From the NCBI RefSeq assembly GCF_004010195.1, contig NC_057754.1, positions 10,748,344-10,797,571 of the forward strand: DNA of 49,228 nt, read 5' to 3'. The number at the start of each line of letters is the position of its first letter. The first letter of the stretch is position 1. The notes beneath the pieces were generated by a model. That model was not told where the DNA came from. It did no database searches and saw only the letters and a program-made list of their open reading frames with translations. The stretch comes from Chiloscyllium plagiosum (taxonomy: Eukaryota). This document shows positions 3,569 through 49,094 of this stretch, piece after piece. The position numbers were made by a program, and so were the translations under genes.

Positions 3569-4007
3569 GATCTTTCTGAAACTAAGAGAACTAAACCAAT
3601 TACAAAAGTTGTTGAACTTAGCTCTGTGATAAAGCATCCCTCATTTATTGCAAGCGGGATTCTCTGGAGGGCCAATTAGGTTGGAAAATACCAACTTACA
3701 CGCAAATTAACTCACAGTTTAATGCTTGGACAAACCTACGCATCCTACCACCTGGAAGTACATTGGAAGCAGATACATGAGAACACGACCACGGGCATAC
3801 TCCCTACCATGACCCTCAGAAAATCCTGAAATGGAACCACGTCACCACTGCTTCACTGGCATTAACTGTTAAAATAATCTGAAGTCCCTCACAGTGACAT
3901 CGGCAAAAGCAGAGCAGCCCTGCTAGAATCACTGAGATTTTACATAAGAGATTTAAGCATCCCACAAGGATGGGAGCAAATTTCATATTCGTCTGCTCCT
4001 AGATAAT

Positions 4008-4208
4008 AGGTAAAAACAATGACTGCAGATGCTGGAAACCAGATTCTGGATTAGTGGTGCTGGAAGAGCACAGCAGGTCAGGCAGCATCCGAGGAGCAGT
4101 ACATCGACGTTTCGGGCAAAAGCCCTTCATCAGTTTATTCCTGATGAAGGGCTTTTGCCCGAAATTCGATTTTACTGCTCCTCGGATGCTGCCTGAACTG
4201 CCATGCTT
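4008..4208. mobile_element. Short fold-back Penelope-like element with hammerhead core
   Basis: Inverted arms around 4134-4140; minus-strand core CTGATGA-A-GGGC-TTTT-GCCC-GAAACGTC at 4106-4133, degenerate plus-strand copy at 4141-4168; 9-bp TSD CTAGATAAT at 3999-4007 and 4209-4217. Confidence 0.85.
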
Positions 4209-4546
4209 CTAGATAATGGCCAGAGTGCGACGTAAACCCCGCTCTTTCGTGAAACACACATGATTCTTAGCGTGCTTGACAGCGTGGATACATCCAAGTC
4301 ATTCCCCCTTCTTGGACCTCTGAGATCATAATCTGAGAATAAGGATCGCTGATGGGTCATAAAGTCGTGAACAAAATGATAGAAAGTTCGAGCAATGACA
4401 GTGGAAATACTGAAGCAACTACTGAAGTGGGCACCTTCGAATTGAATTTTTATCTGAGATTATCTTTGCTGGTTGTTCACGTTGTACATATTAGCATTCC
4501 TGCTCTCGTACCTGTTCACAACATATGCAGGGGTTAGGCCTGCACA

Positions 4547-4619
4547 GAGCCAATGGTGCAATTAATAACGCTCCAGATTTCGGATTAGAAGGCTGTAGAT
4601 TCGACCCCGACATTGGTCG
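4547..4619 (+). pseudogene. Degenerate tRNA-Arg
   Basis: 73 nt colinear with vertebrate tRNA-Arg (GGGCCAGTGGCGCAATGGATAACGCG...GGATCAGAAG...TTCGAC...TCG); TCG at the anticodon position; broken stems and mutated A/B boxes. Confidence 0.72.
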
Positions 4620-5114
4620 AGAGCAATTTGCATCTGTTCAATCAGCAAATGTCTCTGAGGGCATCAGAGACGATGACCCACCGTCAGGACAGAAGGACAA
4701 GGCCTCCTGATTGTCCCTGCTTGTTCGCGCAGTTCACATTCTATTCCCGCTCTTAAAGAGCTCCTGAAGATTCAGAAACCTGAAAATTGGATTTTCTGTC
4801 TTGTTCCCTTTACGTTCTCACGAACCATAGTGCTTGGACCAGTACGTTTGGGAAATTGAAGGTTGCACATGAGCAGTTTTAGGATTATTTCACCTTGTCC
4901 TTCTCTGATGACACTGGGAAATTGACTCTGATGTTCTTGAGGACATTTACGAATTCTGAAAAGATTGTCATTCCTGCACGACAGGAATTCAAACCTCGTC
5001 CTGGCCTCACGATTTAAATATATGATTTGCATGAGAATGCAGAAGGCATGGTTAGTAAGTAGAGGGATGAAAACAGAATTGAGTTGTAAATCAAACATCA
5101 TCAGATTATAGTGC

Positions 5115-5230
5115 AACAGGTTTGTTTGGAAGTTCAACCTTTCGAAGCGCTGCTCCTTTGTCAGGTAGCTACTGGACTAGCTACCGTGTGTGATTTTAAA
5201 CATTGTCTACCCAGGCCAACACCGGCACCA
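5115..5230. mobile_element. Degenerate short PLE-derived element (second family)
   Basis: CTTTCGAAGCGCTGCTCCTTTGTCAG is a decayed reverse complement of CTGATGAAGGAGCAGCGCTCCGAAAG, followed by a GTGTGATTTT...CCAACACCGGCA tail. Confidence 0.55.
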
Positions 5231-5249
5231 TCGGCACAGTAGACAGTGA

Positions 5250-5492
5250 AAAACGTTTTCCAAGATTACAAAGGATCTTGATGAAATGGGTAAATGGGCT
5301 GACAATTCGAAGATGGGATCAATCTGGATAAAGCGAGACATAAGTAAATTGTTTGGATAAGTGTATGAATAAGAAAATATTGGAGGGCTACGGCCCATAA
5401 GCAGACAGATGGACTAGTTTAGTTTGGGATTATGTTCGGCATGGACTGGCTGGACAAAGGTGTCTATTTCCATGCTGTATGGCTCTATGACA
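5250..5492 (+). mobile_element. CR1 LINE 3' fragment
   Basis: Typical CR1 3' UTR (GGCATGGACTGGCTGGAC...TTTCCATGCTGTATGGCTCTATGAC). Confidence 0.65.
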
Positions 5493-5904
5493 AAGAGAAA
5501 GCTCAGTTTAGAAGTATAGAAAAGTTGAAAATTGCTCTAGAGCTTGATAGGACTGGAACCTAAAATCTTCTCATCTGGAGTCAATCAAATCATGGTCTCC
5601 ATGAGTCAAGATTCTGAACAAATTCAGAGACGTTTTTGGTCTTTTCTCGGTCAGCGTCTCAAATCAGGTGACTTGGTTGAGCCAAGCTTTTACAGCGGCG
5701 CAGCATCTCATAACAGGTCCCCATTACTGTCAGCCTGTTCTCAACTTTCCTGTAGTACACTGCTGAACAACGTCATGTTATCCCAGTACCCCTTTCTTCA
5801 CATTGAAACCCGTGATGACATAAGCCATATGGCAAAGCTTCCCGTCAGCATAACTGGTTATACATTGATTATTTCACTAAGAATTTGCTTCCATTGATGT
5901 CGCT

Positions 5905-6627: not shown

Positions 6628-8395
6628 AACATATAAAACAAAGAACATTACAGTGCAGGACAGGCCCGTCGGATCGATGTTGCGCCGACCTGTGAAACCA
6701 ATCTGAGGCATGTAAAGTACACTACTCCATTCTCGTCCATGTGCCTATACACTGACTAATTAAATGCTCGTAAAATTGGCGAATCTCCGACTGTTGCAGG
6801 CAGTGCATTCCACGCTCCTACTGCTCTGAGTAAAGAAACTACGTCTGACATCTGCCCTATATCTATCACCCCTCAATTTGAAGCTATGTCCCCTCGTGCT
6901 AGCCATCACCATCCTCGGAAATAAGCTTTCACTGTCGACCCTATCCAACCCTCTGATTATCTTATATGTCTCTATTAAGTCACCTTTCACCATTCTTCTC
7001 TCTAACGAAAACAGCCTCAAGCCCCTCAACCTTTCCTCATAAGACCGCCCCCCATACCAGGCAACGGCCTAGTAAATCTCCTCTGAACCCTTTCCAAAGC
7101 TTCAACATCCTTCCTATAATGCGGCAACCGGAACTGCATGTAATACTCCAAGTACTGGTGCACCAGAGTTCTGTACAGTTGCAGCGTGATCTCATGGTTC
7201 CGAAACTCGATCCCTCTACTAATAAAGACTAACACGTTGTAGGCCTTCGTAACAGCCCTACCAACCTGGGTGGCAACGTTGAGGGATATATGTACATGGA
7301 CACCGACATCTCTCTGCTCATCTACACTACCAAGAATCTTACCATGCGCCCAGTACTCTGCATTCATGTTAGTCCTAAAGTGAATGACCTCACACTTTTC
7401 TGCATTAAACTCCATTTGCCACCTGTCAGCCCAGCTCTGCAACTTACCTATGTCCCCCTGTAACCTAAAATATCCTTCAGCACTATTCACAACTGTACCA
7501 ACCTTAATGTCATCTGCAAATTTGGTAGATTAGAGTGGTGCTGCAAGGGCTGATTAAGGACTTTTGCCCGAAACGTCGATTTTTCTGCTCCTAGGATGCT
7601 GCCTGACCTGCTGTGCTTTTCCAGCACCACTCCAATCTAGACTCTGGTTTCCAGCATCTGCAATCCTCACTTTTGCCTTGCAAATTTGGAACCCATCCTT
7701 CTACGCCCTCATCTAGGTCGTTTATAAAAATGACAAACAGCAGTGGACTCAAAACAGATCCGTGCGGTACACCACTTACAACTGAACTCCAGGATGAACA
7801 TTTCCCATCAACCATCACTCTCTGTCTTCTTTCAGCTAGCCAATTTCTAATCCAAACCGCTAAATCACCCTCAATCCCGTTGCCTCTGTATTTTGTGCAG
7901 TAGCCTACCATGGGGAAAATAAACAAACGCCTATGTGCACCACATCAACTGCTTTACCCTCATCCACCTGTTTTTCCACCTTCTCAAATAACGCTGTAAG
8001 GTTTGTGAGGCACGATCTACCCTTCACAAAAGCATGTTGACTATCCCTACTCAACCTATTCCTTTCGAGGTGATTATAAATTCTCTGTCTTATAACCTTT
8101 TACAACACTTTAACCACAAACGAAGTACGGCTCACTGATCTATAATTACCAGGGTTGTCTCTACTCCCCTTCTTGAACAAGGGGACATTTGCCATCCTCC
8201 AGTCTTCTGGTACTATTCTTGTAGACAATGACGACATAAAGATCAGAGACAAAGGCTCGGCAATCTCCTCCCTGGCTTCCCAGAGAATCCTAGGATAAGT
8301 CCCATCCGCCCCAGGGGACTTACCTATTTTCACACTTGCCAGAGTTCTTAACACCTTCTCTTTGTGAACCTCATTCCCATCTAGTCTAGTACCAT
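6628..8395 (-). mobile_element. CR1 LINE, 5'-truncated, disrupted ORF2 (reverse transcriptase)
   Basis: Translated fragments [98 protein letters not shown]-type tail near 6628. Confidence 0.93.
7526..7678 (+). mobile_element. Short PLE-derived element inserted in the CR1 RT
   Basis: Decayed core CTGATTAAGGACTTTTGCCCGAAACGTC plus family arm and tail; 11-bp TSD TGCAAATTTGG at 7515-7525 and 7679-7689. Confidence 0.85.
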
Positions 8396-8596: not shown

Positions 8597-10800
8597 AGAC
8601 CAGAAGACCATAATACATGCGAGCAGAAATTAGGCCATTCAGCACATCGAGTCTGTTCCGCCATTCAATATGGCTGATAGGTTTTTCACACCCAATCTCC
8701 TGCTTTGTCCTTGTAACTCTTGAGCCCCGTTGTTACTCAAGCATCTATCTTAGTCTTACATATCTCAATGACATGGCCTCCACAGGCTTCTATGGCAATG
8801 AATTCCATAGATTCGCCACACAGTGGCTGAAGAAGTTTCTCCTTATCTCTATTTGAAAAGGTCTTCCTTTTACGCTCAGACTTCATCAGATCCTTGTCTT
8901 TCCTACCAATGGAAGCACCTTCCCAACATTTACTCTGTCCTGGCCATTCAGTATTCTGTCTGTTTCAATTAGATCATCTTCCTAAACTGCACCGAGTATA
9001 AACACAGAGCCCACCAATATTTCTCATAGGTTCAGTTTTTCCTTCCTTGTACGATTCTTGTGAACTTTCTCTGAGCACGTTCCAGGGTCAGTACATGCTT
9101 TTTGAGATATGGAGACCGAAACTGCACAGAATACTCCAAATGTGGTCGGACCAGAGCCTTATAGAAACACAGAAGTACACCTTGCCTTTATATTGAAGTC
9201 TTCTCAAAATAAGTGACATAATTGCATTTTCCTTCCTAACTCCTGGCTCAACCTGCAAGTTTACCTTGAGAGAATCCTGCAGGAGAACTCTGAAGTTTTG
9301 TTGCACTTCAGACTTCTGAATTATCTACACATTTTGAAAATAGGTCATGCCTCTATTTTTCCTGTGGAAGCTCTTTTTGCTGGCCTGCCTGTTTGCAGCC
9401 ATTTAGTCAGTCATGATATTGCTCTTGCCTAGCTTAATCCCTCGCCCTGGGTGGCCTCTAGCAAACTAGAATATTCTGCATCAACTGCACAACTTCTGCT
9501 TTTCCCACATAACTTCTACTTTGCTTATCTGCAGCCACCTGTGAGGCAAAACCATAACCCAGCCAGACGTTATCATCGGGTGGATGTAGAATCTGGAGTG
9601 TGCATTGACTCATGATCTGAGAACAATAGTTTGTTATGGACAGTCTTAGAAGGCCGACCTTGGACTCTGCCTGTTGTATAGCCAAGTAGGGCCTCTAGTG
9701 ACTATTTTGTGATTTTGCATTTGATTGAGGAATTACCAGCTCAGTGTCTGTTGTACTAAATAAATCCACAGCGATCTGGAACATTTTGGAGTAGCATTGG
9801 ATCAATATAAGGGATGGTGTGCTCCCCATGATGTCATGCAATAGAGTTTCTCAATGCTCAAGGTCTGAGTCCGGAGAATTTCTTCAACACTTCCTACCAA
9901 GGTGCATGACCTCACACTTTTAAACGTTGTACTCCATCTGCCATTTCTTTGCCCAATCTCCAAGCCTGTCTAAATCTTTCTGCAGACTCCTCTTCTCCTC
10001 AATGCTACCTGTTCCTCTACCTATCTTTGTATCATCCGCAAACTTAGCCAGAATGCCCTCAGCTCCTTTATATAAAGTGGAAAATGGTGGTCCCAACACT
10101 GAGCCTTGTGGAACATCGCTTGCCACTGGGTGCCATCCTGACAAGGGCCGTTTTATCCCCACTCTCTGCTTTCCGCCGAACAGCCAAGCTTCTATCCATA
10201 CTAGCATCTTGCCTTTGACACCATGGGCCCTTATCTCACTCAGTAGTCTTCTGTGCTGCACTTTCCTAAAGGCTTTCTTGACGTCCACGTAGATAACATC
10301 CTTTGGCTTTCTCAAAGGATTTTGAAGTTTTGTCAGACATGACCTCCCCTTCATGAAACCATGCTGAGCTTTACTCTATTTTATCAAGTATTCAGAAATC
10401 GCATCTTTTGCAATGGATTCCAGAAGCTTACCCACGACTGAGTTTAGGCTAATCCGTCTGTAATTTGCCATACTCCCTTTTTAAACAGGGGTGTCACGTT
10501 AGCGATTTTCCAATCCTTTGGGGCTCTTCCTGATTCTATCTATTCCTGAAAGATCACGACGAAAGCCTCCCCTATATCTCCCGCCATCGCCCTTAGAATT
10601 CTGATGGAGTCCATCCAGTCCAGGTGATTTCTCCATCTGCAAGCCATTCAGTTTTTCCAGCGCCTTCTCCTTGGTGATGACCACTATACTCAGCATTGCC
10701 CGCTCGTGAATTTTTGGTGTATTATACGTGTGCTCCGCCGTAAGGACTGACGCAAAGTAATTACTCAGGTCCTCAGCCATTTTCCAGCGGGCCACTCTCC
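8597..10800 (-). mobile_element. CR1 LINE ORF2 remnant interrupted by an unrelated insert at about 9363-9890
   Basis: KSPGLDGLH, KGRSCLTKL, SDVPQGSVLGP, AKFADDTKIG, WAKKWQMEYNV; 3' tail AAGACCA repeats near 8597. Confidence 0.9.
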
Positions 10801-11152
10801 ACTTTTGCCTCTCTTCCTTTACCTGAGACAAGTGCTGAGATCCGCTGAAACGGTGTGAACTGCTGCTGATGTTTCGTTTCCTGCTTCGTTCCCTTCCACT
10901 ATTGTTCGTGCCTTAATTTGAGCTTGAAGAGATTATTTACACCATCGCCATACTCCATTTTTTCGTCGATGAATTTCACGCTGAATTTGCGCTCGTTTGA
11001 GGTCATCTGTCCGCACTGATATTTAACATGCCGTCCTGTACACTTCAGACCTGATGATAAGCACCTTGAAGGGGAATTCGATCTACGTGTACTGAAGATA
11101 AAGTTAAAGCAATTAAATGCGTCATCGCTGAGTTTAACCATGCTGATTTTGA

Positions 11153-11461
11153 TCCGAGCTTAAAAATGTGTTGCTGGAAAAGCGCAGCAGGTCAGGCAGC
11201 ATCCAAGGAGCAGGAGAATCGACGTTTCGAGCATAAGTCCTTCTTCAGGAATCCTAGATCGATTCATAGAAACGATGTAACACTGCAGACCAGAACTATG
11301 TCAGGCTAGAAAGAAAAATACAGAACAGTAACTGTGCGCACAGATCGGAAGCGTCCTGAATTGCACGCGTTCATAAATAAACGTTTGGATGCTGCCTGAC
11401 CTGCTGCGCTTTTCCAGCAACACATTTTTAAGCTCGGATCCCCAGCATCTGCAGCCCTAGT
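11153..11461. mobile_element. Fold-back PLE-derived element with a 124-bp captured segment
   Basis: Inverted arms GATCCGAGCTTAAAAATGTGTTGCTGG.../...CCAGCAACACATTTTTAAGCTCGGATC; hammerhead-like core on minus at 11221-11248; TSD TGATTTTGA at 11144-11152 and 11462-11470. Confidence 0.88.
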
Positions 11462-11813
11462 TGATTTTGACCCGTCAAAGCTTCTATCAAAAATTGCGAG
11501 AATGAATGTGACCACATTAGGCGAATTGGCCACCCTAAATTGCGCTGAGGGATGTGTAGTTCAGGCGCTTTCGTCAAGGGAAATGCAGAGGAATAGGGGA
11601 GGGGGATGAGTCGAGGTGTGGACTTGATGAGCCGTTTCCACACTGTAGAGATTCTATGCAGATGAATAACACAAACGCACTTATTTGATGATTCATAGAA
11701 ACGATGTAACACTGCAGACCAGAACTATGTCAGGCTAGAAAGAAAAATACATAACAGTAACTGTGCGCACAGATCGGAAGCGTCCTGAATTGCACGCGTT
11801 CATAAATAAACGT
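11261..11813 (+). repeat. 124-bp direct repeat (11261-11384 and 11690-11813)
   Basis: GATTCATAGAAACGATG...CATAAATAAACGT present twice, one mismatch seen (CAGAACAG vs CATAACAG). Confidence 0.95.
11515..11660 (+). mobile_element. HE1-type SINE 3' fragment
   Basis: TTAGGCGAATTGGCCACCCTAAATTG...GGTGTGGACTTGATG...TTTCCACACTGTAGAGATTCTATG. Confidence 0.75.
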
Positions 11814-11893
11814 AACTGCGAAACTGGATATGCCCACTTTGAATACAATTAATTAACCTGGAAAATTCTGCTTGGGAAACAGCTAGTGTTACT

Positions 11894-12082: not shown

Positions 12083-14199
12083 TTTAAAAAAGTGGGGTTT
12101 TGCGCACTGTAAGGCATTTTCGCTTAGCTATTTTTACTGATTACAGAGTTCATTGCGCTTAAATGGATGTAGAAAGGAGATGCAGAAACACAATTGCACC
12201 TGAATAATGATTGGGAGTGAGATTTTGCCCTAATTTCCCTTCCACTTTCGAACAGCTCTGCTCTGTTAATGTTTGTGCTGAAGCAACGTATATCGGCCTT
12301 GTGAGCGTATATCAAAGATTCGATATATGTGACGATCAACTTTGAGTTTGCGACTGACTAATTCATTTCCCAATACTTAAACGCGATGTGTTCATTTTAC
12401 TTTGAGACAATGTCTGGAGCTCGACGGACGTTCTCAGCCATTGAACCGTAAACTAGCCCAACAGCAACAACACCGATCTGTTTGCTTCGAACAATATAAT
12501 TAAGGTGCAAGGGCAGCAATTCGATATTTCCTTGGAGTATTACGTGAGGCATTAACGTCCAATCATTCAAGATTGTGCAGAGCTTGCTCTCAGCTGCGTA
12601 AAGAAATGAATGGAGCAGCAAAAGTTCTGTTGTTTGACATTTATTATGCAGCCCTTGCAGTTCTCCTGGTTCCAGGAAAAAAAGATGGCCGCCGATAGAT
12701 GCATAAAGTAACCTCTTCTCTAATTTTCTTACATCTCATCATTTCTCGGCTTGTTTATCAGGGTATTTCTGTCAGCACTGATGGTCTACCGCACTAACAA
12801 AATGCGTAATCCCTAGTCGCAAAACATCTCAATATTTTTTACCTTCAATGGTATTTCTGCTTTACAGCATATTTTATCTCCCTGTTATTCTATCTACATT
12901 TAAGAAGGAAATACTATATGGTCAGATTGGATTCAATCATGCCCATCAATTGTTTTCTCTTCCCCAGTACCACAGTGAATGAGACAGAGACAAGGAGCGG
13001 AATTTTAACTCACAATCTCCATCTCCCCATTACCCGGCCAGTGCAGTTTCAGGCAGTGACTTCCTGCTAATCTCTGAGAGCTGAGATCCTCCAAAACGCA
13101 CCAAGCCTCCCAATACACCAAGCACAGGCTTGGAAAAAAACGCAGCGCAATTATCATCCGCTCACCAAATCTTCAAATATCATTGATGCAATCCCTGACT
13201 GAGAGAGTCACAAATTAAAATTCGACAAACTTCCCAAGTAGGTCAGGTACCACATACCTTCACTCTGTCGAAAAGCTGATTGCTATGAATTGGAAAGGGC
13301 GCTCCATGACATTCACACGAGGCTGTGATTCGTGTTCCGTTGTTTGTCCATCAATTCAATGGACAATTTCACTGGGAATGCGACTGTCATTAGAAATAAA
13401 TCAATGTGTGGTGTTACTGGAAGATGGCGGGAGATCAGCATGAAGTCAGGTCATCATTCAGAGAGCCAAAGCAAATACGATGCGCGGAGTGCAACATTCT
13501 CCCACAATGCAATAATTCTGTAATTAAAAATCATTCTGGAAGGAAAGTCGTGTGCATATTGGAACTACTCTTGATTTGAAGTTTTCCCATGAGATTTATC
13601 CTTCTTATCCCTAGATAAGAAGGCAGAACATATTCATTGAGGATTACTTTTGGTACGTCTAAGAAAAGAGGAGGAGGCAGAGACAGGGAGACACGGAGTT
13701 TGGAAGAGAGGCCCATTCCAAGTAGCTGTCGAGGGATCTGGACAGTTGACGGAACTTGGGAGAGTGTCCTGCTTCACGCCTTCCTTAGCAGTGTCTAAGT
13801 AGCAGTGGAAAAAACGATTGGGACTAGCGTTGATAGATCTGCTATTTTGTAAGGCTTAATCCAGGAGTCGGAGGGATTGGCATATTTTCACTCAGAGCCG
13901 GAAAGGGCTGAACATTTGCCCGGAATGGCCGCCTGATAGAGGATCTAAGGAGGACACTGTTTCGGTTCGTTGGAGCTAAAATTCAAATTCCATCATTTTT
14001 CTTTTGCATACTTAACATTTGAAACATTTAAGGGAAGGGTAGACAGTTTTTTTTTCTTTCGAAGTTGTATTCCGAGCTGCTTCATATCGGCCTTATGATA
14101 CAAAATATAGGCATCAAACTTTCCCAGCACAGAGCGTCAGCAGCACCAATGTGCACAAACAAACGATGATTTGCGCGGTGTGGGTCTTTTTAGGTAAGT

Positions 14200-14411
14200 T
14201 GAAACTTTATTGCTGGAACAGCACAGCAGGTCAGGCAGCATCCAGGGAACAGGAGATTCGACGTTTCGGGCACAGGCCCTTCTTCAGAAGAAGGGCCTGT
14301 GCCCGAAACGTCGAATCTCCTGTTCCCTGGATGCTGCCTGACCTGCTGTGCTGTTCCAGCAATAAAGTTTCAACTTTGATCTCCAGCATCTGCAGACCTC
14401 ACTTTCTCCTC
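14200..14411. mobile_element. Young perfect fold-back PLE-derived element with hammerhead core
   Basis: Palindrome 14196-14376 (90-bp arms, 1-nt centre at 14286) plus tail; intact minus-strand core CTGAAGA-A-GGGC-CTGT-GCCC-GAAACGTC at 14260-14287; 16-bp TSD GTCTTTTTAGGTAAGT at 14184-14199 and 14412-14427. Confidence 0.93.
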
Positions 14412-14449
14412 GTCTTTTTAGGTAAGTATATATTCGCTAATTTTTAAGA

Positions 14450-15869: not shown

Positions 15870-18790
15870 TATAAGTGGAGTTGGGGCAGCTCAGCCTCTC
15901 AGAGGACAATAGCAGTGTCATCCAGGTTTTGAGCACCTTAAATGAATCATCTGTTAAGAGGAGTTTGTCAAAGTAAATGGTGCCTTTGACATAGGGGATT
16001 CTGCAGGCAGGAGCACAGACAGGCGTTTCTGCAGTCATGAACGAGACTTCAAGATGCGATGTTGCTCCGTCATGCCAGGATTAAGGTTGGGAGATGAAGG
16101 TGATAGGTCAGGGAGGAGAAGGTGGAGTGGATAGGTGGAAAAGGAGCTAGGCAGGTCGGACAAATCCAGACACGTCAGGGGATCGTATTGCTGGAGGTTA
16201 GAAACTAGGATGAGGTGGGGAAGGGGAAATGAGGATAGCGGGTTTGTTTCAGCACATGGTTGAAGAGCTTCAGGGCTGAGAAAATGACCTGGGAGTTGCA
16301 GTGGGAGAGAGACTCCTGAGATTCTTGTAGAGAGAGGAGGAAAACTTCTTCAAGGCTCTTCCAGCACCACTGATCCAGAATCTTGCAGTAAAATGTCAAG
16401 GGGAGAGTGAGCACCGGAGGCCGTTGAATTCATTGGTGCCAAAGACATAGGTAGAGGAAAGGATGAGATTCTGTAGACTGATTATAGGAAATTGCGTGAG
16501 AGGTTAAAAGGCAGGCCCTCAAAGGCAGCAATCTCTGGATTGCTTCCTGTGCCACCTACTATTAACAGAATGAACAGGAAGATAGGACAGAGATGGTGCA
16601 GGAAGCAAGGATTCTCACTTTTTAATCATTTGTATCTCTTTTCGGGTAGCAAAAGCCTCTTCATAAAGATTGGGTTTCGCCTGAATGACAGGGGATATTC
16701 CTGGTGAGAAGATTTGCTAGAGCTACTCGGAGGGTGTTAAATGAGGGTGAAAGGGAAGGGTATAGAGAAAAAGCAGAATATGGTTCGGTAGGCAAAGAAA
16801 ACACGTTATGCGCACAGAGCAGGTAAGTGCATGGCAGATAATGAGGTGAGTCTGAGGATGTAAACTACATTTATTTCAATATAAGAAGCCTGACAGGTAA
16901 GTCAGAGGAACTCTGGACATGTGTAAAAACAGGATTGGAATACATTAGCTATTCCAGAGACATAGCTGTGGGTGGTGGGTGGATGTCTGTTGTTGCTGGT
17001 TCGATGTTTCAGTGCTCAGATACTACAGGAAGGTAAGAGAGGAAAAAGAATGGTGTTTTTGATTAAGGAAAAATACTGCTGCTGCACTTAGAGAAGATAT
17101 TTCTGGGCATCTTGTAGTGAAGCTATATAGTAGAACTGAGAAAAATGAAGGGTATGGTCACCTTGATAAGATTGTTAATAGCAGAGCACGTTGGGACGAG
17201 TGATTGTAATGTAATTAATTTAAAACCAGTATTTACTGTGAATGAGATGTCGAACGAGACAACTTCGGGAAAGAAATAATTATGTTTTGAAAACGGTCCA
17301 ATTTACTGAATCGGAGGTGCTAGAGATTTTAAAAAGGATGAAGATAGATACATCTCCGGAACCGATCAAGTGTGTGCAAGTAACTTGCGGGAATCTCGGG
17401 AAGAAATTGAGGGAATACGACAGAAATATTTAAATCATCCATAGCGATATGTGCGGTGCTGGATGACTGGAGTATGTCTAATAATCTACCTTTACTTAGC
17501 AAGTTTGCACGTAGAAGTCTGGGAACTATAGACCTGCGAGTCTGACATTACTGGAGGAGATTCTGAGGGACAGAATTGACATGCTTTCGGCGAGACAGGA
17601 AGTGATTAGGGACCGCCATCATACCTTTGTGCGTGGGAACTCGTGTTTTTAAAGTTTGTGACGAAAAAAATAGACGAGGGCAGTGCGATAGACGTTGTCG
17701 ATATGGACTTTAGCAAGGCCTTTGACAGGGTTCCACAGGGTATATGGGTCAGCAAAGTTACATCATCCGGGATTTGGGGAGAGCTTGCCAATTGACATCA
17801 AAATTGACTTGACGGTAGGAGACAGAGGGTGGTGATGGAGGGTTGTTTTTGAGACTAAAAGCCTGTGGCCAGTGTTGTTCCGTGGGGATTGGTGTTGGGA
17901 TCATTGTTGTTGGTCATTTATTTCAATGATTTGGATGATAGTTTACGAAGCACAGCACGGGTCACACCAAAATTAGTGGCATAACCGAGAGTGAAGTATA
18001 CAAATGGCAGCTAGAGCTTAACTTGGATAAAAATGCGAGGTGTTGCATTTTGCTAAGACATGCAAGGGCTGGGCGTACACAGACAATGGCCGGGCCCTGG
18101 GAATTGTTGTCACACAGAGAGACCCATCGATTCAGGTACATTCCTTGAAAGATGCATCACAGTTGGACAATGTGGATCAAAAGGCTTTAGGTACTCTTGC
18201 CTTTATTGCTCACACCTGTGAGTGTAGGGAGTTGAGACATGTTTCGAATGTACGGGATGTTGGTTAGGTCACTTTTGGAGTTCTGTGTAGAGTTTTGGTC
18301 TACTATTTTACAGTCTTGCTACAGGGAGGATGTTATTGAATTGGAAAAGGTGCAGAAAAGATTTAAAGAATGTTGCAAGGCTTGAGTTTTCAGGAGAAAC
18401 TGAAAGGCTAGACTTTTACACTGGATGGTAGAACGTTGAGATTTATAAATTCAAAATAAGGTTTAACAGCAAAGGTCTTTTCCATAGGGTAGGGAAGTCC
18501 AAAACTAGAGGGCATAAGTTTAAGGTGAGAGTGGAAAGATTTAAATGGGACTTGAAGGACACGCTTTTAACATAGATGTTCGTATGTGTAATGAACTATC
18601 AGGTGAAGTCATGGATACAGTCACTGTGACGTCATTTTAAAGACATTTTGACAGGTACATGGACAGAAAAGATTGAAAGTGATGTGGACGAAAAGCAAGC
18701 AAATGGAAGTGACCTTGTTTGGGAAACCTAGTCAGGATGGATGAGTTGGAATGAATGTCTCTTTTCGTGCAGTATGACACTATGACTAGA
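15870..18790 (+). mobile_element. Long degenerate CR1 (ORF1 esterase, endonuclease and RT remnants, 3' end)
   Basis: IGDS-like codons ATAGGGGATTCT near 15992, ISGLLPVP...WCRKQGF, endonuclease start TATTTCAATATAAGAAGCCTG, YMDFSKAFDRVP near 17700, tail TATGACACTATGACT. Confidence 0.85.
16085..16384 (-). mobile_element. Penelope-like element fragment with a short inverted terminus
   Basis: GATGAAGGTGATAGGT shared with 47899-47914; ends in CTCTTCCAGCACCACTGATCCAGAATC, the reverse complement of the arm at 4043-4070. Confidence 0.7.
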
Positions 18791-19686: not shown

Positions 19687-20028
19687 ATACTTGGCGGGCC
19701 AGATTCGCTAATGCGATAAGGGAGCGTTTAAACTAGAGGGGCGGCGGCGGGATCCTCAACAGCAGAGACCAGAGCGCGAGGCTGGAAGGGGATACAGTAA
19801 TCAGAAATAATAAAGCGAAGGGACAGGTCAGGGTGGAGCACGACTGGTAGCAAGGAATGCTGGTTGGGGTAAATTGTACCTATTTTAATTCCAAAGGACT
19901 ACAGGTAAGGCCGATGGACTCAGGGCATGAATAAATACGTGGGACTGAGACATTATAGCGATTACAGGAACATGGTTCAGGGAGGGACAGGACTGGCAGT
20001 TTGATGTACCGGGGTGCAAGTGCTTTAG

Positions 20029-20119
20029 AGTTGAGAGTGTGTTGCTGGAAAAGCACAGCAGGTCAGGCACATCGGAGAAGCAGGAAAAATGACGTTTTGG
20101 GCCGGAGCCTTTTATCAGG
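20029..20119 (-). mobile_element. Single-arm PLE-derived element with decayed hammerhead core
   Basis: Family arm TGCTGGAAAAGCACAGCAGGTCAGGCA...GACGTTTTGGGCCGGAGCCTTTTATCAG; 11-bp TSD AAGTGCTTTAG at 20018-20028 and 20120-20130. Confidence 0.82.
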
Positions 20120-20586
20120 AAGTGCTTTAGGATGAACAGAAGTGTTGGAAAGAGGGAAGGGGAAGTTGCATTTTTGGTTAAGGTGAGTATCACAGCAGTA
20201 ATCAGAAATGAAGTAACTGAATAATCATCTATTGCGGCTTTGTGGGTGGAGCTAAGAAATAAGAAGGAGATGGTGACGTTATTGGGGTCATACTATAGGC
20301 CTCCAAATAGTAAACAAGAACTAGAGGAACAAATATGCAGGAAGACTGGGGAGACTTACAGGAGCAATAAGGTTGTCATTGTAGTGGTTTTTATTATTCC
20401 TAGCATAGACCTGGACTTCCATAGCGCCAAGGCCTTAGTAGATGGGGTGGAATTTGTTAAGTGCGTTCAGGAAAGTTTTGAGAAGCGGTATATAGAGAGT
20501 CCTACTTGGGAAGTGGCAAAACTCGACCCACTCTGAGGAAATAGGGCAGGACAGATAAATGAGGTTACAGTGGGGAACAGTGACCA

Positions 20587-24061: not shown

Positions 24062-24735
24062 AGTTTTGAGAAGATTTGTAGTTCAGGTTGAGGTTCTGGA
24101 CATAGGTTTGCTCACTAAGCTGGAAGGTTCATTTTCAGACGTTTTGTCACTATACTAGCTAACATCATCAGTGAGCCTCCGAATGAAGCACCTGGTGTAG
24201 ACCACTTTCTATTTATATGTTTGAGTTTCCCCTACGTTGGTGATATCATTTCCTGTGGCGACGCTATTTCATATGGTGGCGATATTCCTGTTCTTTTTAT
24301 CAGGGGGTGGCAAATGGGATCCAAGTCAATGTGTTTGTTGATAGAGTTCCAGTTGGAATGTCATGCTTCTAGTAATTATCATGCTTGTCTCTGTTTGGCT
24401 TGTCTTAGGATGGATGTGCTGTCCCTGTCTAAGTGGTGTCCTTCCTTATCTCTATGTAAGGATACTAATGAGAGGGAGTCATATTGGTGTGTGGCTATTT
24501 GATGTTCATGTATCCTGGTGGCTAGCTTTCTGTCTGTTTGTTCCAGGTCTTGGAAGTTATTTTGTAAATGACATTAGTTTTGCTTGTTTTCTGTATCGAT
24601 CCTTAGCTGCTGTTTTAGTGTGTTGGTGGGTTTGTGGGCTACCATGATGCCAAGGTGTCCGAGCAGTCTGGCAGTCGTTTCTGAGATGTCTTTGGAGATT
24701 GGCTAGGGTTTCTGGACGTATTTTGCCTACTTGTT
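24062..24735 (-). mobile_element. Penelope-like element 3' part (GIY-YIG region and terminal repeat), degenerate
   Basis: Colinear with 29620-30040; decayed core CTGATGATGTTAGCTAGTATAGTGACAAAACGTC on minus at about 24138-24171. Confidence 0.82.
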
Positions 24736-36190: not shown

Positions 36191-36409
36191 GCTGGAAATG
36201 TGTTGCTGGTAAAGCGCAGCAGGTCAGGCAGCATCCAGGGAACAGGAGAATCGACGTTTCGGGCATAAGCCCTTCTTCAGGAATGAGGAAGAAGGGCTTA
36301 TGCCCGAAACGTCAATTCTCCTGTTCCCTGTATGCTGCCTGACCTGCTGCGCTTTTCCAGCAACACATTTCCAGCTCTGATCTCCAGCATCTGCAGACCT
36401 CACTTTCTC
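36191..36409. mobile_element. Young fold-back PLE-derived element with hammerhead core
   Basis: Inverted arms with 9-nt spacer; intact minus core CTGAAGA-A-GGGC-TTAT-GCCC-GAAACGTC at 36253-36280; 15-bp TSD CTTGAAGGAAGCTGG at 36176-36190 and 36410-36424. Confidence 0.92.
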
Positions 36410-36635
36410 CTTGAAGGAAGCTGGCCCCTGTTGTAGAAGCGCTGGTTCCCATTGACATGGATGTGTCTCCAGTATGTGGGATCACACCGTTCCCACGTCT
36501 CCACAATGCAAGTACCAGTCTTTATTCTGGACAAGTAACACTGACAGAGGATAATTGACATTTAGGAGCTACGATCTGAAGCATGAACTCACTGACAGCC
36601 TGCACCGGGAGATCGTACAAGCTGCTGGACCACTA

Positions 36636-37940: not shown

Positions 37941-38230
37941 TGAAACATGCTACTGGCTGCTTTTCTGGGACATTCGCCCTATGAAGCTGAGGAAAAATTA
38001 GTCTTTCATCGGTTTATTTGAATCCGGTCACTTCACAGATTTCTGAAGGGTTAAATGTATTTGGTAGGCCTCGTTGTTTCATTACAAAATTTGAAATTAA
38101 CATGCATTTACAATTGAACAGAAGTTACTCGAGAAACTCAATAGATCAGGCAGCGCCTGTGGAGACAGAAACAGAGTTGACATTTCTGAACTTCTTTCGA
38201 ACTTTATTAGTATTCTGTTTTCACCCACAC

Positions 38231-38512
38231 ATGGTGTGGACTCTCCCCGTGTCTGCGTGGATTTCCTCCGGGTGCTCCAGCTTCCTCCCACAATCCAAAA
38301 ATGTGCAGGTTAAGTGAATTGTTTAGGTGAATTTAGGTGAATACTAAATTGCCCATAGTGTTCAGGGTTGTGTAGGTTAGGGGGTACATGTAGAGTAATA
38401 GGGTAGGGGAAAGAGTCTGGGTGGGTTACTCTTTGGAGGGTTGATGTGGACTTGTTGGGCCAAATGGCCTGTTTCCACATTGTAGGGATTCTATGCCTGT
38501 AGGGATTCTATG
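38231..38512 (+). mobile_element. HE1-type SINE, 5'-truncated, lying within a degenerate fold-back element (about 38115-38590)
   Basis: CTCCCCGTGTCTGCGTGGATTTCCTCCGGGTGCTCC body; duplicated TGTAGGGATTCTATG tail. Confidence 0.85.
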
Positions 38513-38730
38513 GCATGCTGCCAGATGTCCTGAGTTCTTCCAACAAATTCTGGTGTTGCTTTCGATTTCCAGCATCCACAGTTCTTTACATTAGTCATTT
38601 AAACCAATATAAAAACTTCAAGATTAATGGCAAGGTAAAAATTATGTTTGGGGGAGCGTTTTCCTGACCCCATTTCCAACATGGAAATGTGCAGCAAAGA
38701 GAACTGATCAAGTGGAAAAAGCGATAACGT

Positions 38731-40692: not shown

Positions 40693-40719
40693 TTTCAGCA
40701 TTTGTTCTGCTCTGACTTA

Positions 40720-42760: not shown

Positions 42761-43139
42761 TTGTGAATGTCTCTCCTGGATTGACAGGGATGGAATTTAT
42801 AAACACCTTTTACAGGAGGTGTGCAGGGGAGCATTAGCACACAGCAAACCCAAGTCAAGCGACAGACAGACAGAAAGTTCACGAAATCTCAGGTCTGATA
42901 ATATCAAGGACTGAGAAACAGCTTCCACTTTTCAAATGACAAAGACGAGTAACTGGACTGAAATGTTAATTCTGATGTAGTTTTATCAGTTGCTGCTGGA
43001 CCTGCAAAGTCTCTGCAGCATTTTCTGTTCTCATTTTTCTGGCATTTGCAGTAACGGTTTTTATTCAAGGGGAATGTTTATTTCATCTGAACTTCTATCC
43101 TGAACTCACCCCAAAGTTAATGTAAATTTTATTTTGCAG

Positions 43140-43921: not shown

Positions 43922-44019
43922 GCCTGTTACCAAGCGTGAATGTTTAACCTGTTATCTTATTGTTACTTCTGTTATTTTAGTACTCCTCTTCTGCCAAAGA
44001 CTCATTAGTTCATCACTTA

Positions 44020-45165: not shown

Positions 45166-45451
45166 GTCTTCCGTAGGTCCAGACCAGAGGCAGGTTCCCT
45201 TCCCTGAACGACATCAGTGAACCAGTTGGGTATTTGTGACAGTCCAGTAGCTTTCATTGTCACTTTTATCACATGCCAGCCCCACAATTGACCAGATTCA
45301 TTGAGCTGCTTTTCATAACCTGCCTTTGTGATTTTATGTTTCTGTCTCACTCTCTTTATTCTGTTTTTCAAACCAGTTTCACAGGGTGTTACAAACAGAG
45401 CATCTACAATAAGGAAACTGAAACCAATCATTATATCAGGATTGGACAGAT

Positions 45452-46615
45452 ATGCCCCATTTGCCACAACCTGAATCGCAACGGACTTTGAACATGGAAG
45501 GAAAAAACACCATTCACAGTGGAGAGAAACGATGGAAATGTGGAGATTGTGGAGAAAGGTTCCGTTACTTGTCAGTGCTGGAAATTCATCGCCGTAGTCA
45601 CACTGGGGAAAGACCATTCACCTGCACAGAGTGTGGGAAAGGATTCACGCGGTCATCCATCTTACTGAAACACCAGCGAGTTCACACTGGGGAGAGACCT
45701 TTTAAATGCCCAGTTTGTGGAATGTGCTATAAAAGTTCCAGCAACTTAATGGCCCATTTACGTGTCCACAGTGATGAAAGACCTTTCCAATGCCCAGACT
45801 GTGGGAAGTGCTATAAAGGTTCTGGGGATCTGATGCGCCATCAACATATTCACACTGAGGAGAGGCCTTTTAAGTGCCCAAATTGTGGGAAGTGCTACAA
45901 AAGTCCCAGGGCACTAATGAACCATCAACAAGTTCACACAGAGGAGAGACCTTTCGAATGCTTAGACTGTGGGAAATGTTTTAAAACATCCAGCAATCTG
46001 ATATCCCATCGGCGTGTTCACACTGATGAGAGACCTTTCAAATGCACCGACTGCGGGAAATGCTTTAAAAGTTCGAGAGATTTGATGAACCATCAACGTG
46101 TTCACTCTGATGATAAACCTTTTAAATGTTCAGACTGTGGAAATTGCTTTAAAAGTTCTGGGGAACTGATGTCCCATCAACGTGTTCACACTGATGAGAA
46201 ACCTTTCAAATGTTTGGATTGTGGGAAATGCTATAAAAGTTCTGGAGAACTGACTTCGCATCAACGTGTTCATACTGAGGAGAGATGGTTCACGTGTTCC
46301 CAGTGTGGGACCAGATTCAGACGATCGTTTGATCTCACGGAACACCGGCGAATTCACACTGGGGAGAAGCCGTTCACCTGCTCCGTGTGTGGGAAGGAAT
46401 TTACTCGGTCCTGTCGCCTTGTGGCACACCAGCGAGTTCACACTGAGGAGAGACCGTTCAGATGCTCTCACTGTGGGTCTGGGTTCAGGCAATCATCCCA
46501 TCTCACTGCGCACCAGCGAGTTCACACTGGAGAAAGGCCATTTGCCTGCACAGAGTGTGGGAAGAGATTCACTCGGACTTGTAACCTGCTGAGACACCAA
46601 CGAGTTCACAAGTGA
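45452..46615 (+). CDS. C2H2 zinc-finger protein, 13 tandem fingers, no KRAB/SCAN/BTB domain seen
   Basis: 387-aa ORF with 13 intact CxxC-x12-HxxxH fingers and TGE[KR]PF-type linkers. The in-frame ATG at 45494 (AACATGG, strong Kozak context) may be the real start; acceptor ...TTTCACAG ends at 45384. Confidence 0.95.
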
Positions 46616-47711
46616 CGTTAGGAGTTGGATCTTTCTGTTAATTACTTCCAGGACTGAATCTTGTTCATTGCTTTCCTTTCTCCTGATGTTAACAAATTCA
46701 AACATCATTTTTGGTGTTACCATCCTGAATGAAAGGCAACTAAATCGGCTTTGTGTTAAACACGTAATGTGTTTAGACATGTTAATATCTCAGATATAGT
46801 ACGATTACCTTTGTAGAACTTTCTCTTTCCCTTGTCGCCTCTGGGTTCACCTTCAACTTGTGTGAGTCATGCTCTGGCAATGAGCTTTCAGTTCAGATGG
46901 GGAGCTGTACAGTTGCAAGAAACCTTGATTATGTTTAAACAAAATTTCTGCAGTTGAATATATGTTGCATAAGTTACTTGAGTGGAAAATAATAAGTAGA
47001 AACTGTGTACTGCAGAAAGCATGGAGTGAATGTTCAAGCACTGAGCACTAAAATGACAAGCACCCCATTGCTTGAGTAAGATGATTGGAGGAAATGAGTG
47101 AGTGGGAGTGGATATAAAATTATGAGAACGTGAGCCCCACAGAAATCAGAAGGAAGGTGACGGAGATTGGCCACTCACAAAACTTTTGAAGTTTTACCAA
47201 TAAATAATTTTTTCACAACTAACCTGGTGATTTCGTGTGTGCTTCATTCTGAAAACTTCGGGCCCAATACCATATGTCTGTGATTACATGTTGGCATTGT
47301 ACGTGTTCATGTTACTGTCAGTTTGACGACCATTTGAGTCTGCCTCAAGATGGCAGCAGCGGCAGGGTGGGGCAGCCTTCAGGCTTCTGGGTAAAAGCAG
47401 CTCTGTTGATGATCTACATTGACATTGTTTATAAGTGTTGAACCATTAAATAATACTAGGATGAATTTGACATGTGAATGTTTTGAAGGAACATCATCAG
47501 GCAACAAGATTTTGAGAGAATTTTCACAGTGACTCAAATAGCATTTTCTAAGCAATCTACTCATCCCAAAATCTAGCTGTAGTGTTTAAGCTGTCTGTGT
47601 TTTACCTTCAATTCTTCAGACAAATAAGCTGCTGTTGCTGTCATGCAGTAGCCACAGCAGACTTTACATGTTCCTTTAGACTTCAGGTCACTTGATGTTG
47701 ACATTTCTTTT

Positions 47712-47914
47712 TGGATTAGTGGTGCTGGAAGAGCACAGCAGTTCAGCCAGCGTCCGAGGAGCAGCAAGATCGACGTTTCGGGCAAAAGCCCTTCATTAGG
47801 AATAAAGGCAGAGAGCCTGAAGCGTGGAGAGATAAGCTAGAGGAGGGTGGGGGTGGGGAGAAAGTAGCATGGAGTATAATAGGTTAGGGGGGGTGGGGAT
47901 GAAGGTGATAGGTT
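47712..47914 (-). mobile_element. PLE terminal fragment with mutated hammerhead core
   Basis: Same arm as 4048-4133, continuing into purine-rich element body; core reads CTAATGA on minus. Confidence 0.8.
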
Positions 47915-48054
47915 GTCAAAGCTAGAAAGTTTTCAATAATATCCTTCACATCAAGTTGGCCTTATATGCCAACGGCATGAAGCAAGACCGGAGAGGTCGG
48001 CATTGTAGAAGGGGATTTACTTTGATTCAGACCTCATACTCCCATCACTTTCTA

Positions 48055-48450
48055 TGGTTCAGATGGACACAATATCGGACTGAAGCTGTATTCACTCTTG
48101 AACATAATGAATGATCCAGCCTCAACAGCTTTCTGTGGTAAATGATTCCACAGATTCACTATGCACTGAGAGAAGAAATTACTTCACATGTCTTAAATTG
48201 CTCCTCCTTGTTTTGAGATTACACCCTCTGGTCATAGATTCTCCCACAAAGGGAAATAAGCTTTCTGCATCTAACCTGTTAAATCCTGATGAAGAGTCAA
48301 AAGGCTCACAAAGTTAACTCGACTTTCTTCCCCCAGATGTTCCCAGACCTGCTGGGTTTCTCCAGCAATTTCTGTTTTTGTTTTAGATCTTAAGATCCAT
48401 AGTTCTTTCTTTTACTTTTCCCCTGAGAATCTTGTATGTTTAAATAACAC
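48055..48450 (-). mobile_element. CR1 3' fragment carrying a degenerate PLE-derived insert at about 48285-48420
   Basis: TGATTCCACAGATTCACTA...GAGAAGAAAT...ACCCTCTGGTC (CR1 antisense); insert starts CTGATGAAGAGTCA and carries CAGACCTGCTGGGTTTCTCCAGCAATTTCTG. Confidence 0.65.
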
Positions 48451-48614
48451 ATGGTGCTTTTTTGCAGTACTGTGGCTGAGTAGCCTTAGGCAGAGGATGT
48501 TGGTGTTTCCTCCTGTTTGTTCCCAGTTTCATGTGATACTTTCAGGTTGAAATGAAACCCTCAGTAATTCTGTTGTGTCTGATGTCAGCAATTCATGGTT
48601 TTTTTTGAGCTTCG

Positions 48615-48686
48615 AGAAGGAACCAGGAATCGAATCCTGGCTGCAGTGGTGAAAGTGCTGAATCCCAACCACTACACCAGCATGGA
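48615..48686 (-). pseudogene. Degenerate tRNA-Glu(TTC)
   Basis: Reverse complement TCCATGCTGGTGTAGTGGTTGGGATTCAGCACTTTCACCACTGCAGCCAGGATTCGATTCCTGGT versus TCCCTGGTGGTCTAGTGG.TAGGATTCGGCGCTTTCACCGCCGCGGCCCGGGTTCGATTCCCGGT; many CpG transitions; acceptor stem broken. Confidence 0.8.
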
Positions 48687-48949
48687 ACATGCCAGCCAAG
48701 GTTGCATGATTTCTCAATAACATTGCTTTTGACATTTAATTTTTCATTTGATAGTATGTTAACCAGAGGTACGTTTTTCAGACAAAATTGTCATATCATT
48801 GGGTTTTACAGCATGCAAAGAGGCCCTTGAGCCCAGTGACCTTTCTTCAGAACTGGATTTGAATCTGCTGTGGGAGACACATTGACTTCACTACACAGTA
48901 ATGTTTGCAAACTCCATACATAATGTGCAAGCTTCATACAAAATCACAG

Positions 48950-49062
48950 AGAGAAAGTAAGAGAGCTTCTTCCTGAAGAAGGGCTTATGCCCGAAACGTC
49001 GATTCTCCTGTTCCTTGGATGCTGCCTGACCTGCTGCGCTTTTCCAGCAACACATTTTCAGC
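48950..49062 (+). mobile_element. Single-arm PLE-derived element with intact hammerhead core
   Basis: CTGAAGA-A-GGGC-TTAT-GCCC-GAAACGTC at 48973-49000; 16-bp TSD TCATACAAAATCACAG at 48934-48949 and 49063-49078. Confidence 0.9.
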
Positions 49063-49094
49063 TCATACAAAATCACAGCCAGGTTTCCATAATG

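What the first reader, a model, noticed from the sequence alone, without database searches (positions are those of the whole stretch)
3999..49078. Window-wide set of short, hammerhead-bearing, fold-back Penelope-derived elements
Seen: more than 15 insertions, mostly 90-310 bp, from at least 3-4 sequence families share CTGA[AT]GA-N-hairpin-GAAACGT[CT]. The hairpin covaries between families (GGGC/GCCC with loops TTTT, TTAT, CTGT; GAGTC/GACTC; GTTACCT/AGGTAAT) while the catalytic boxes stay fixed. Ten have readable TSDs of 9-16 bp (3999, 7515, 11144, 14184, 20018, 26404, 32178, 35735, 36176, 48934). Many are head-to-head palindromes with a 35-40 bp tail on one side only. Known: PLE terminal repeats carry minimal hammerheads with a palindromic stem III thought to cleave as dimers, and PLEs often insert with an inverted terminal segment. 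Inference: at about one copy per 3 kb, these may be non-autonomous ribozyme-processed retroelements, or stereotyped abortive PLE insertions, that seed self-cleaving and dsRNA-forming motifs through this genome.
Basis: partly seen in the sequence, partly recalled or inferred. Interest (0 to 1): 0.8.

Follow-up and report, generated by a model that had tools for sequence, protein, structure and literature searches.

The report
Fold-back Penelope retroelement stumps in shark
These short mirror-image inserts in shark DNA are real, but they are truncated ends of Penelope-like jumping genes in a layout already described for that class, each likely built at its own landing site rather than spread as a ribozyme-processed family, and where their arms stop may mark the start of the element's RNA.

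Summary
The observation mostly holds: 19 related loci in 49 kb, 10 of 10 target-site duplications exact, 9 of those 10 inserts two-armed with a tail on one end. The exact hammerhead motif survives in only 8 arms at 7 loci; other cores are decayed or absent. Three loci join the motif directly to a GIY-YIG endonuclease C-terminus of Penelope/Poseidon type, so they are element 3' ends. The parents of the other two families were not tied to a reverse transcriptase. Inverted copy, one-sided tail, duplication and minimal hammerhead are all published features of Penelope-like elements. All nine centres differ, one holds a 124-bp copy of nearby host DNA, and 11 of 16 arms of the main family cross the predicted cut site, so a self-copying or ribozyme-cut family is not supported. 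Best mechanism (inferred): both target strands prime a cDNA from two start sites; 10 of 16 arms stop within 11 nt just 5' of the core, probably the RNA's start. This scan already reached the same reading on other shark DNA. One weak lead: the deepest listed read joints end at the predicted cut site.

The parts
3999..4217 (.). Family A fold-back; 9-bp TSD, insert 4008-4208; tail on left arm; intact core 4106-4133 (-), mutated core at 4141 (+)
7515..7689 (+). Family A two-armed insert in a LINE fragment; 11-bp TSD; 21-nt inverted arm, long arm with mutated core and 39-nt tail
11144..11470 (.). Family A two-armed insert; 9-bp TSD; intact core 11221-11248 (-); arms 54/54 identical; 23-nt tail on right
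11261..11384 (+). Filler between the arms: 124-bp copy of nearby host DNA, at single-copy-like depth in contigs
11690..11813 (+). Donor of the filler (123 of 124 identical), about 230 bp downstream of the insert
14184..14427 (.). Family A perfect fold-back; 16-bp TSD; arms 85/85 identical; 39-nt tail on right; intact core 14260-14287 (-)
16080..16384 (-). Rearranged family A relative: short inverted end piece, start of an ORF shared with carpet-shark proteins, then a piece of the C-rich upstream repeat; no core, no TSD found
20018..20130 (-). Family A single arm without tail; 11-bp TSD; decayed core; 5' end 3 nt upstream of the core
24062..24702 (-). 5'-truncated Poseidon-type copy: decayed endonuclease region, terminal repeat, decayed core, tail
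26404..26544 (.). Family A two-armed insert without core; 14-bp TSD; tail (45 nt) on left
29618..30084 (-). 5'-truncated Poseidon-type copy: GIY-YIG C-terminus, TATA-like box, intact core 29696-29729, open 37-codon ORF start, tail
30085..30210 (-). Family C arm beginning at the core (GAAAC box mutated); no TSD found
32178..32499 (.). Poseidon-type fold-back; 13-bp TSD; both arms include the last ~22 codons of the ORF and an intact core (32268-32301 -, 32417-32449 +); 40-nt tail on left
35735..35945 (.). Family C old two-armed insert; 12-bp TSD; decayed core on left arm; tail on right
36176..36424 (.). Family A fold-back; 15-bp TSD; arms 85/88 identical; 9-nt centre; 34-nt tail on right; intact core 36253-36280 (-)
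38115..38190 (-). Old family C fragment
38506..38590 (+). Old family C fragment without core
42945..43057 (+). Old family C fragment, core decayed
47712..47915 (-). Family A single arm running ~110 nt upstream of the core into a multi-copy C-rich repeat; no tail; core mutated
48284..48420 (+). Family C arm beginning at the core, inside a LINE fragment; no TSD found
48934..49078 (+). Family A insert; 16-bp TSD; short tail-like inverted piece on left, then arm with intact core 48973-49000

Best explanation
The inserts are truncated 3' ends of Penelope-like retroelements (shown for three loci, likely for the other sixteen), and each fold-back was likely assembled at its own landing site from two short DNA copies of an uncut element RNA. 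Inferred steps: the element's endonuclease makes a staggered cut (9-16 bp TSD); each exposed strand primes reverse transcription, one at the outer and one at the inner of two start sites about 35-40 nt apart, which gives a tail on one end only; the copies mostly run to a point just 5' of the hammerhead core, probably the RNA's 5' end, because the start sites lie near the front of the transcript; repair then joins the two inward-facing ends head to head with loss, microhomology or filler DNA. The hammerhead is a passenger from the terminal repeat and decays after insertion.
For: Shown: tblastn of carpet-shark RT/GIY-YIG proteins covers 24205-24702, 29665-30040 and both arms of 32178 up to the core. 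The tail ends 104-106 nt after the ATG in stem II in three copies and the short end at 64 nt; in Anolis Poseidon the ORF starts at stem II, reverse transcription starts at two sites (the outer at +111-118), both target strands are cut and extended, and ribozyme mutants insert normally (PMC11167929). 9 of 9 two-armed inserts carry tail sequence on exactly one end (8 clear, 48934 by eye; 0.5^9=0.002). All nine centres differ and none holds a TSD copy. The 11144 centre is a copy of DNA 230 bp away, at depth 18-30 against 1e6-2e7 on the arm in run X2. 11 of 15 listed joints are strand switches, each at its own coordinates, depth 8-89. 10 of 16 family A arms end within -8..+2 of the core's first C; 2 of 200,000 constant-rate simulations did as well. 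Family A continues upstream as a longer multi-copy element.
Against: No RT or endonuclease ORF was tied to families A and C (searches gave none); their assignment rests on layout. Arm ends were assigned by hand, arms of one locus are not independent, and the 16384 piece was left out. The Poseidon-type copies do not stop at the core (58 nt to 500 nt upstream). The read-depth drop at the core's 5' side (1058 to 142) is confounded by subfamily divergence. The joint tables list no near-symmetric centres, although such centres are in the window, so they cannot exclude a common symmetric centre. Later deletion inside palindromes (recalled, not tested) could also make centres unique; 48934 looks like such a case. 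The initiator-like motif at the stop point occurs at 1.2% of positions by chance. No empty site was seen (the related organism's contigs did not cover the flank).
Confidence: 0.68

Rival explanations
1. Self-priming (snap-back): one strand folds on itself and is copied, making the mirror arm, as proposed for Penelope palindromes in a rotifer; later deletions make the arms unequal.
For: Proposed in PMC3846280. Arms within a locus share subfamily-specific letters and are 85-100% identical. 14184 and 32178 have 1-nt centres.
Against: A copy made from a tail-started strand must be nested in it, but the arm without tail reaches further inward in 7 of 9 inserts, with 1 tie and 1 opposite (7:1, p=0.07). 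The arm without tail ends at the same place as the 3' end of single-armed copies (20018, 47710), so that end behaves as a start site.
Confidence: 0.15
2. A short non-autonomous hairpin element copies itself as a unit from a master copy, and its centre is revised by deletion after insertion.
For: Short, similar lengths; outer ends stereotyped; all two-armed family A centres could be derived by deletion from a symmetric ancestor centred near -8; the read tables may miss symmetric centres.
Against: Four copies of the same subfamily by shared letters (11144, 26404, 36176, 48934; 92-97% alike among the three compared) have four centres, including young ones; single-armed copies with a TSD exist (20018); the family has longer 5'-extended members (47710); no listed joint in table 5 exceeds depth 89.
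Confidence: 0.09
3. Retrozyme-like elements: the hammerhead cuts a multimeric RNA, the monomer circularises and is reverse-transcribed by Penelope enzymes.
For: Type I core present; animal retrozymes derive from Penelope terminal repeats (bioRxiv 10.64898/2026.07.22.740005). In one search the deepest listed strand-switch joint (11220/11252, depth 51-89 in three runs) and the deepest listed head-to-tail joint (11220 to 11163, depth 282, one run) both end at 11220, the first base after the predicted cut.
Against: No tandem array of these units in the window. 11 of 16 family A arms cross the cut site and none ends exactly on it (nearest 2-4 nt away, 26404). The 11220/11252 joint has a 2-nt microhomology; the other subfamily shows no listed joint at its cut site 47771; no pile of read ends (table 6, from a poly(A) library not suited to see them). 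Minimal hammerheads showed no activity as monomers (PMC4209133).
Confidence: 0.05
4. Two separate insertions at the same site in opposite orientation.
For: Double insertion is a known source of transposon dimers (PMC5932611 passages).
Against: It predicts a target copy between the two units; none of the nine centres holds the TSD, and both arms always come from the same subfamily.
Confidence: 0.02

Closest known systems
Endonuclease-bearing Penelope-like element insertions with inverted pLTR and tail (PMC3846280, parts 1-4 of 5 read; PMC8557442 and PMC8969392, passages read)
   Same: 5'-truncated copies, an adjacent inverted copy head to head, a 30-40 bp tail often at one end only, TSDs of similar length, ORF start inside the terminal repeat and tail, capture of host DNA between repeats.
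   Different: Here the inserts are reduced to the two terminal arms (90-310 bp), occur every 2.6 kb, and in families A and C stop just 5' of the hammerhead; those papers propose self-priming or endonuclease resolution, not priming from both strands.
Anolis Poseidon element in vitro (PMC11167929; main text read, supplement figures gave lettering only)
   Same: ORF begins at stem II; two internal start sites define the tail; distances match the Poseidon-type copies here (104-106 nt against 111-118 nt); both target strands extended; ribozyme cutting not needed.
   Different: The text read does not describe joined head-to-head products or run-off at the RNA's 5' end; it found no strand difference in start sites, whereas here the two ends of an insert always differ.
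Minimal type I hammerheads of metazoan Penelope-like elements (PMC4209133, parts 1-2 of 4 read)
   Same: Core boxes, extra base before stem II, G-C closing pair, CG in place of stem III, thousands of dispersed single motifs, some in opposite-strand pairs 100-700 bp apart.
   Different: Stem II is 4 bp in family A and stem I only 2-3 bp; sharks are not among the taxa named in the parts read.
Non-LTR retrozymes (PMC7229834 passages; bioRxiv 10.64898/2026.07.22.740005 parts 1-3 of 5)
   Same: Short, non-coding, hammerhead-bearing, derived from Penelope terminal repeats; reported in one cartilaginous fish.
   Different: Retrozymes are head-to-tail tandems with a hammerhead per unit on one strand; these inserts are head to head with at most one sense motif per strand.
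Twin priming of LINE-1 (recalled, from no call)
   Same: Second target strand primes a second cDNA; inverted segment; junction with microhomology; one TSD pair.
   Different: In LINE-1 the second primer lands upstream, so the inverted part does not duplicate the 3' end; here both arms start near the same 3' site, giving a palindrome.

Membership tests
Penelope-like elements, Penelope/Poseidon type (loci 24062, 29618, 32178) | ORF with reverse transcriptase and C-terminal GIY-YIG endonuclease adjoining the terminal repeat | tested here: met
   Window holds only the C-terminal part; it aligns to P0003/P0007/P0008 (56-85% identity), which carry RVT_1 (E 3e-6, P0007) and GIY-YIG (E 0.003, P0003), both under Pfam's cut-off.
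Penelope-like elements (families A and C) | Parent ORF with reverse transcriptase and GIY-YIG endonuclease | tested here: inconclusive
   An ORF start at 16235-16356 matches three carpet-shark proteins (75-89%) that have no Pfam family; searches for a full-length relative found none.
Penelope-like elements, Neptune clade (families A and C) | [quoted passage not shown] | not testable with these tools
   No parent ORF recovered; the Neptune label is only a recalled guess.
Penelope-like elements | Inverted 5'-truncated copy adjacent head to head | tested here: met
   9 of 10 TSD-bounded inserts; strand-switch joints in contigs of two organisms.
Penelope-like elements | Optional 30-40 bp tail at one end | tested here: met
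   34-40 nt in 4 of 9; longer, shorter or partial in 5 of 9; never on both ends.
Penelope-like elements | TSD of variable length in AT-rich target | tested here: met
   9-16 bp; 88 of 126 TSD bases A/T against 57% in the window, p=0.005.
Penelope-like elements | Partial head-to-tail tandems forming pseudo-LTRs | tested here: inconclusive
   None in the window; low-depth 'goes back' joints in contigs of family A.
Minimal type I hammerhead | Core boxes, extra base, closing G-C, CG stem III | tested here: met
   8 arms (7 with G-C, 1 with G-U closing pair); 0 in 200 shuffles; 8 further arms mutated.
Minimal type I hammerhead | Compensatory change in stems I and II | tested here: inconclusive
   Stem I pair 6-45 takes three Watson-Crick forms in four Poseidon-type arms; scores reached by 25/500 and 19/500 shuffles, above all slid controls.
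Minimal type I hammerhead | Self-cleavage after the triplet | not testable with these tools
   No assay possible; read ends showed no pile in a library unsuited to the test.
Rfam hammerhead families | Match to a curated model | tested here: not met
   13 matches at E<=5, none a hammerhead family.
Non-LTR retrozymes | Head-to-tail tandem units, each with a hammerhead on the same strand | tested here: not met
   None of 9 tandem-repeat rows involves these units; paired motifs lie on opposite strands.
Non-LTR retrozymes | Circular RNA of unit length | not testable with these tools
   Only poly(A) reads were available.
MITEs / DNA transposons | Symmetric terminal inverted repeats and a fixed TSD length (recalled) | tested here: not met
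   One-sided tails and TSDs of 9-16 bp.

The most novel reading that the evidence does not exclude
The short inserts are a genomic record of Penelope replication: paired run-off cDNAs primed from both target strands at different start sites, whose inner ends map the 5' end of the element RNA at the hammerhead; and a minority class of arms ends exactly at the hammerhead cut site, which would be the first in vivo footprint that a vertebrate minimal hammerhead of these elements cuts its RNA.
Probability: 0.2. Interest if true: 0.62.

Novelty: new member of a known kind. Interest (0 to 1): 0.3.

Why it matters
How Penelope-like elements make their inverted repeats and one-sided tails is stated as open in PMC8557442 and PMC11167929. 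A genome with one such insert every few kilobases gives very many independent insertion events, so the strand rule (one tail per insert), the stop point at the hammerhead's 5' side and any excess at the cut site can be counted directly and checked against the in vitro system. As repeats, they also matter for annotation: they resemble MITEs and microRNA hairpins (top Rfam matches were microRNA models). As a new kind of element they do not qualify.

Tried and rejected
No whole genome is held for this window, so no genome-wide clustering was possible. Rfam gave no hammerhead match. Searches for the family A parent ORF: none, three N-terminal matches without RT, none among 130 candidates, uninformative helical look-alikes. 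Run search: no RNA holder listed; run X22 laid no reads, which is no test. The empty-site test failed because the related organism's contigs did not cover the flank. RNA reads of run X21 lie on the family on both strands but none on the flank or filler of the 11144 locus, so they say nothing about these loci. No TSD was found for 16384, 24062, 29618, 30085, 38506, 42945, 47710 or 48284. The inverted pair at 4640-4955 and chance CTGA..GAAA hits (for example in the zinc-finger gene) were looked at and rejected as non-members. A splice acceptor as the cause of the stop point was considered (the Drosophila intron ends at helix I, PMC4209133) and not favoured: no AG at the boundary and no shared upstream exon in the centres. 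Literature searches listed no paper on shark fold-back stumps or on two-strand priming of Penelope elements; the library lacks most subscription papers and repeat databases, so this is weak.


Full report
Setting. The window is 42.6% G+C and holds LINE reverse-transcriptase fragments, a single-exon GPCR ORF and a C2H2 zinc-finger ORF. The best protein matches to a repeat-derived ORF are from Hemiscyllium, Stegostoma and Chiloscyllium, so this is carpet-shark-like DNA. No whole genome is held.

Checking the observation. All ten TSDs are exact, 9-16 bp, at the stated positions; 1 of 300 random position pairs gave a repeat of 9 bp or more. Blast and profile scans found 19 related loci in three groups: family A (10), family C (6, distantly related to A) and a Poseidon-type group (3), one per 2.6 kb. 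The strict motif occurs in 8 arms at 7 loci and never in 200 shuffles. Of 16 arms spanning the core, 8 have changes in the boxes, so the boxes are not held fixed in the copies. Stem II variants are as described, and stem I also varies compensatorily in the Poseidon-type arms, but controls are borderline. Rfam has no matching hammerhead model at E<=5. Nine of the ten TSD-bounded inserts have two opposed arms; unpaired tails are 34-40 nt in four, and 16-60 nt in the rest.

What they are. At 29618-30084 and 24062-24702 the motif follows directly on the C-terminus of a GIY-YIG-type endonuclease, and both arms of the 32178 palindrome include the last ~22 codons of that ORF (domains of the homologues, weak scores). 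An ATG lies in stem II and the tail ends 104-106 nt later in three copies, the short end at 64 nt, close to the Anolis Poseidon layout (PMC11167929). Family A is also the end of something longer: the 47710 copy runs ~110 nt upstream into sequence that is multi-copy in contigs of two organisms and continues beyond, and a rearranged relative at 16080-16384 carries an ORF start matching carpet-shark proteins. I could not tie that ORF to a reverse transcriptase, so families A and C are filed as Penelope-like by layout only. Inverted truncated copy, one-sided tail and TSD are described as typical of these elements (PMC3846280; PMC8557442), and dispersed minimal hammerheads, including opposite-strand pairs, are described in PMC4209133.

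Are they a self-copying family? All nine centres differ and none contains the TSD. The 11144 centre is a 124-bp copy of host DNA lying 230 bp downstream; in run X2 it has depth 18-30, the flank 11-21 and the arm 1e6-2e7. In one search, 11 of the 15 listed joints (5 more not shown) are strand switches, each at different coordinates, with depth 8-89; the 15 listed joints (6 not shown) reach depth 80 and the 12 listed joints with letters between reach 109. Limits: no near-symmetric centre is listed although the window has several, so the tables cannot exclude a common symmetric centre; and deletion inside palindromes after insertion (recalled) could also make centres unique. The 48934 insert may be such a case, since its left part ends in a 7-nt mirror of the core.

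Were they cut by the ribozyme? Eleven of 16 family A arms cross the predicted cut site, so their template was uncut there; none ends exactly on it (alignment, positions entered by hand). In a fold-back the two motifs lie on opposite strands and the predicted fold is one long duplex (-128 to -242 kcal/mol for five inserts), which would block a hammerhead fold. Published minimal hammerheads were inactive as monomers and weak as dimers, and ribozyme mutants did not affect insertion in vitro. Against this: the deepest listed strand-switch joint (three runs) and the deepest listed head-to-tail joint with letters between (depth 282, one run; 12 of 43 rows shown) both end at 11220, the first base after the cut. 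The first has a 2-nt microhomology, the other subfamily shows nothing at its cut site, and an earlier scan note found no such link in another genome. I keep it as a lead.

How they likely form. Shown: one TSD pair, two arms of the same subfamily, tail sequence on exactly one end in 9 of 9, stereotyped outer ends shared with single-armed copies, and inner ends of 10 of 16 family A arms within -8..+2 of the core's first C (2 of 200,000 simulations; the 16384 piece and families B and C were left out, arms of a locus are not independent). Three family C arms also appear to begin at the core. Inferred: both target strands prime, at different start sites; because these sites lie about 100 nt into the ORF, they are near the front of the transcript, and copies started there run off its 5' end. 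A structural stall would be expected on the 3' side of the motif, not the 5' side (reasoning from general knowledge). An initiator-like motif sits at the stop point, but such motifs occur at 1.2% of positions. The arm without tail reaches further inward in 7 of 9 inserts, which fits its 3' end landing on the second cDNA at a variable place and argues against snap-back from a tail-started strand (p=0.07); snap-back is the published proposal. The Poseidon-type copies do not show the stop, and the in vitro study saw no strand difference in start sites. Whether the template is full-length mRNA or a transcript of a truncated copy that kept its promoter is not resolved.

Novelty. The kind of insertion is known. 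Seven searches listed no paper on these shark stumps or on two-strand priming for this class, but key subscription reviews and repeat databases were not available and the figures of the PMC11167929 supplement could not be seen. I wrote down the twin-priming and run-off reading before consulting earlier scan notes; 28 notes in at least 6 genomes hold the same words and the eight shown reach much the same reading. They are not independent evidence. What this window adds is the locally templated filler and the cut-site lead. Labels CR1-like, Neptune, LINE-1 twin priming and palindrome revision are recalled and come from no call. Verdict: new members of a known kind; interest 0.3.

Noticed in passing
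window 30205-30330 (-) and 48130-48290 (+): Two family C arms sit at what looks like the same position of a LINE-like (recalled as CR1) antisense fragment; their upstream flanks are 68-71% alike and the target resembles the arm's first bases. Either a preferred site, 5' joining by microhomology, or an old duplication. No uninterrupted copy was found in the window.
   Followed up: partly
window 16080-16384 (-): Internally deleted family A relative joining an ORF start (one frameshift) to part of the upstream repeat, with a short inverted end piece; a handle for recovering the parent element.
   Followed up: partly
window 10700-11900: CpG-rich stretch (observed/expected about 1 against 0.44 for the window), which contains the 11144 insert and its filler donor; may be a promoter island.
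   Followed up: no
window 810-1745 (-): Uninterrupted 311-codon ORF of a rhodopsin-family GPCR (7tm_1, E 1e-22).
   Followed up: no
window 45422-46615 (+): 397-codon ORF with 13 C2H2 zinc fingers; its repeats give chance CTGATGA..GAAA matches.
   Followed up: no
window 20587-21000: 207-bp tandem duplication, 98% identical, inside LINE-like sequence.
   Followed up: no
proteins P0001, P0002, P0005, P0006: Annotated carpet-shark isoforms of host genes end in the Poseidon-type endonuclease tail, suggesting exonised or mis-annotated element ends.
   Followed up: no
window 29618-30210 (-): A Poseidon-type truncated copy directly abuts the tail of a family C arm, without a readable TSD.
   Followed up: no
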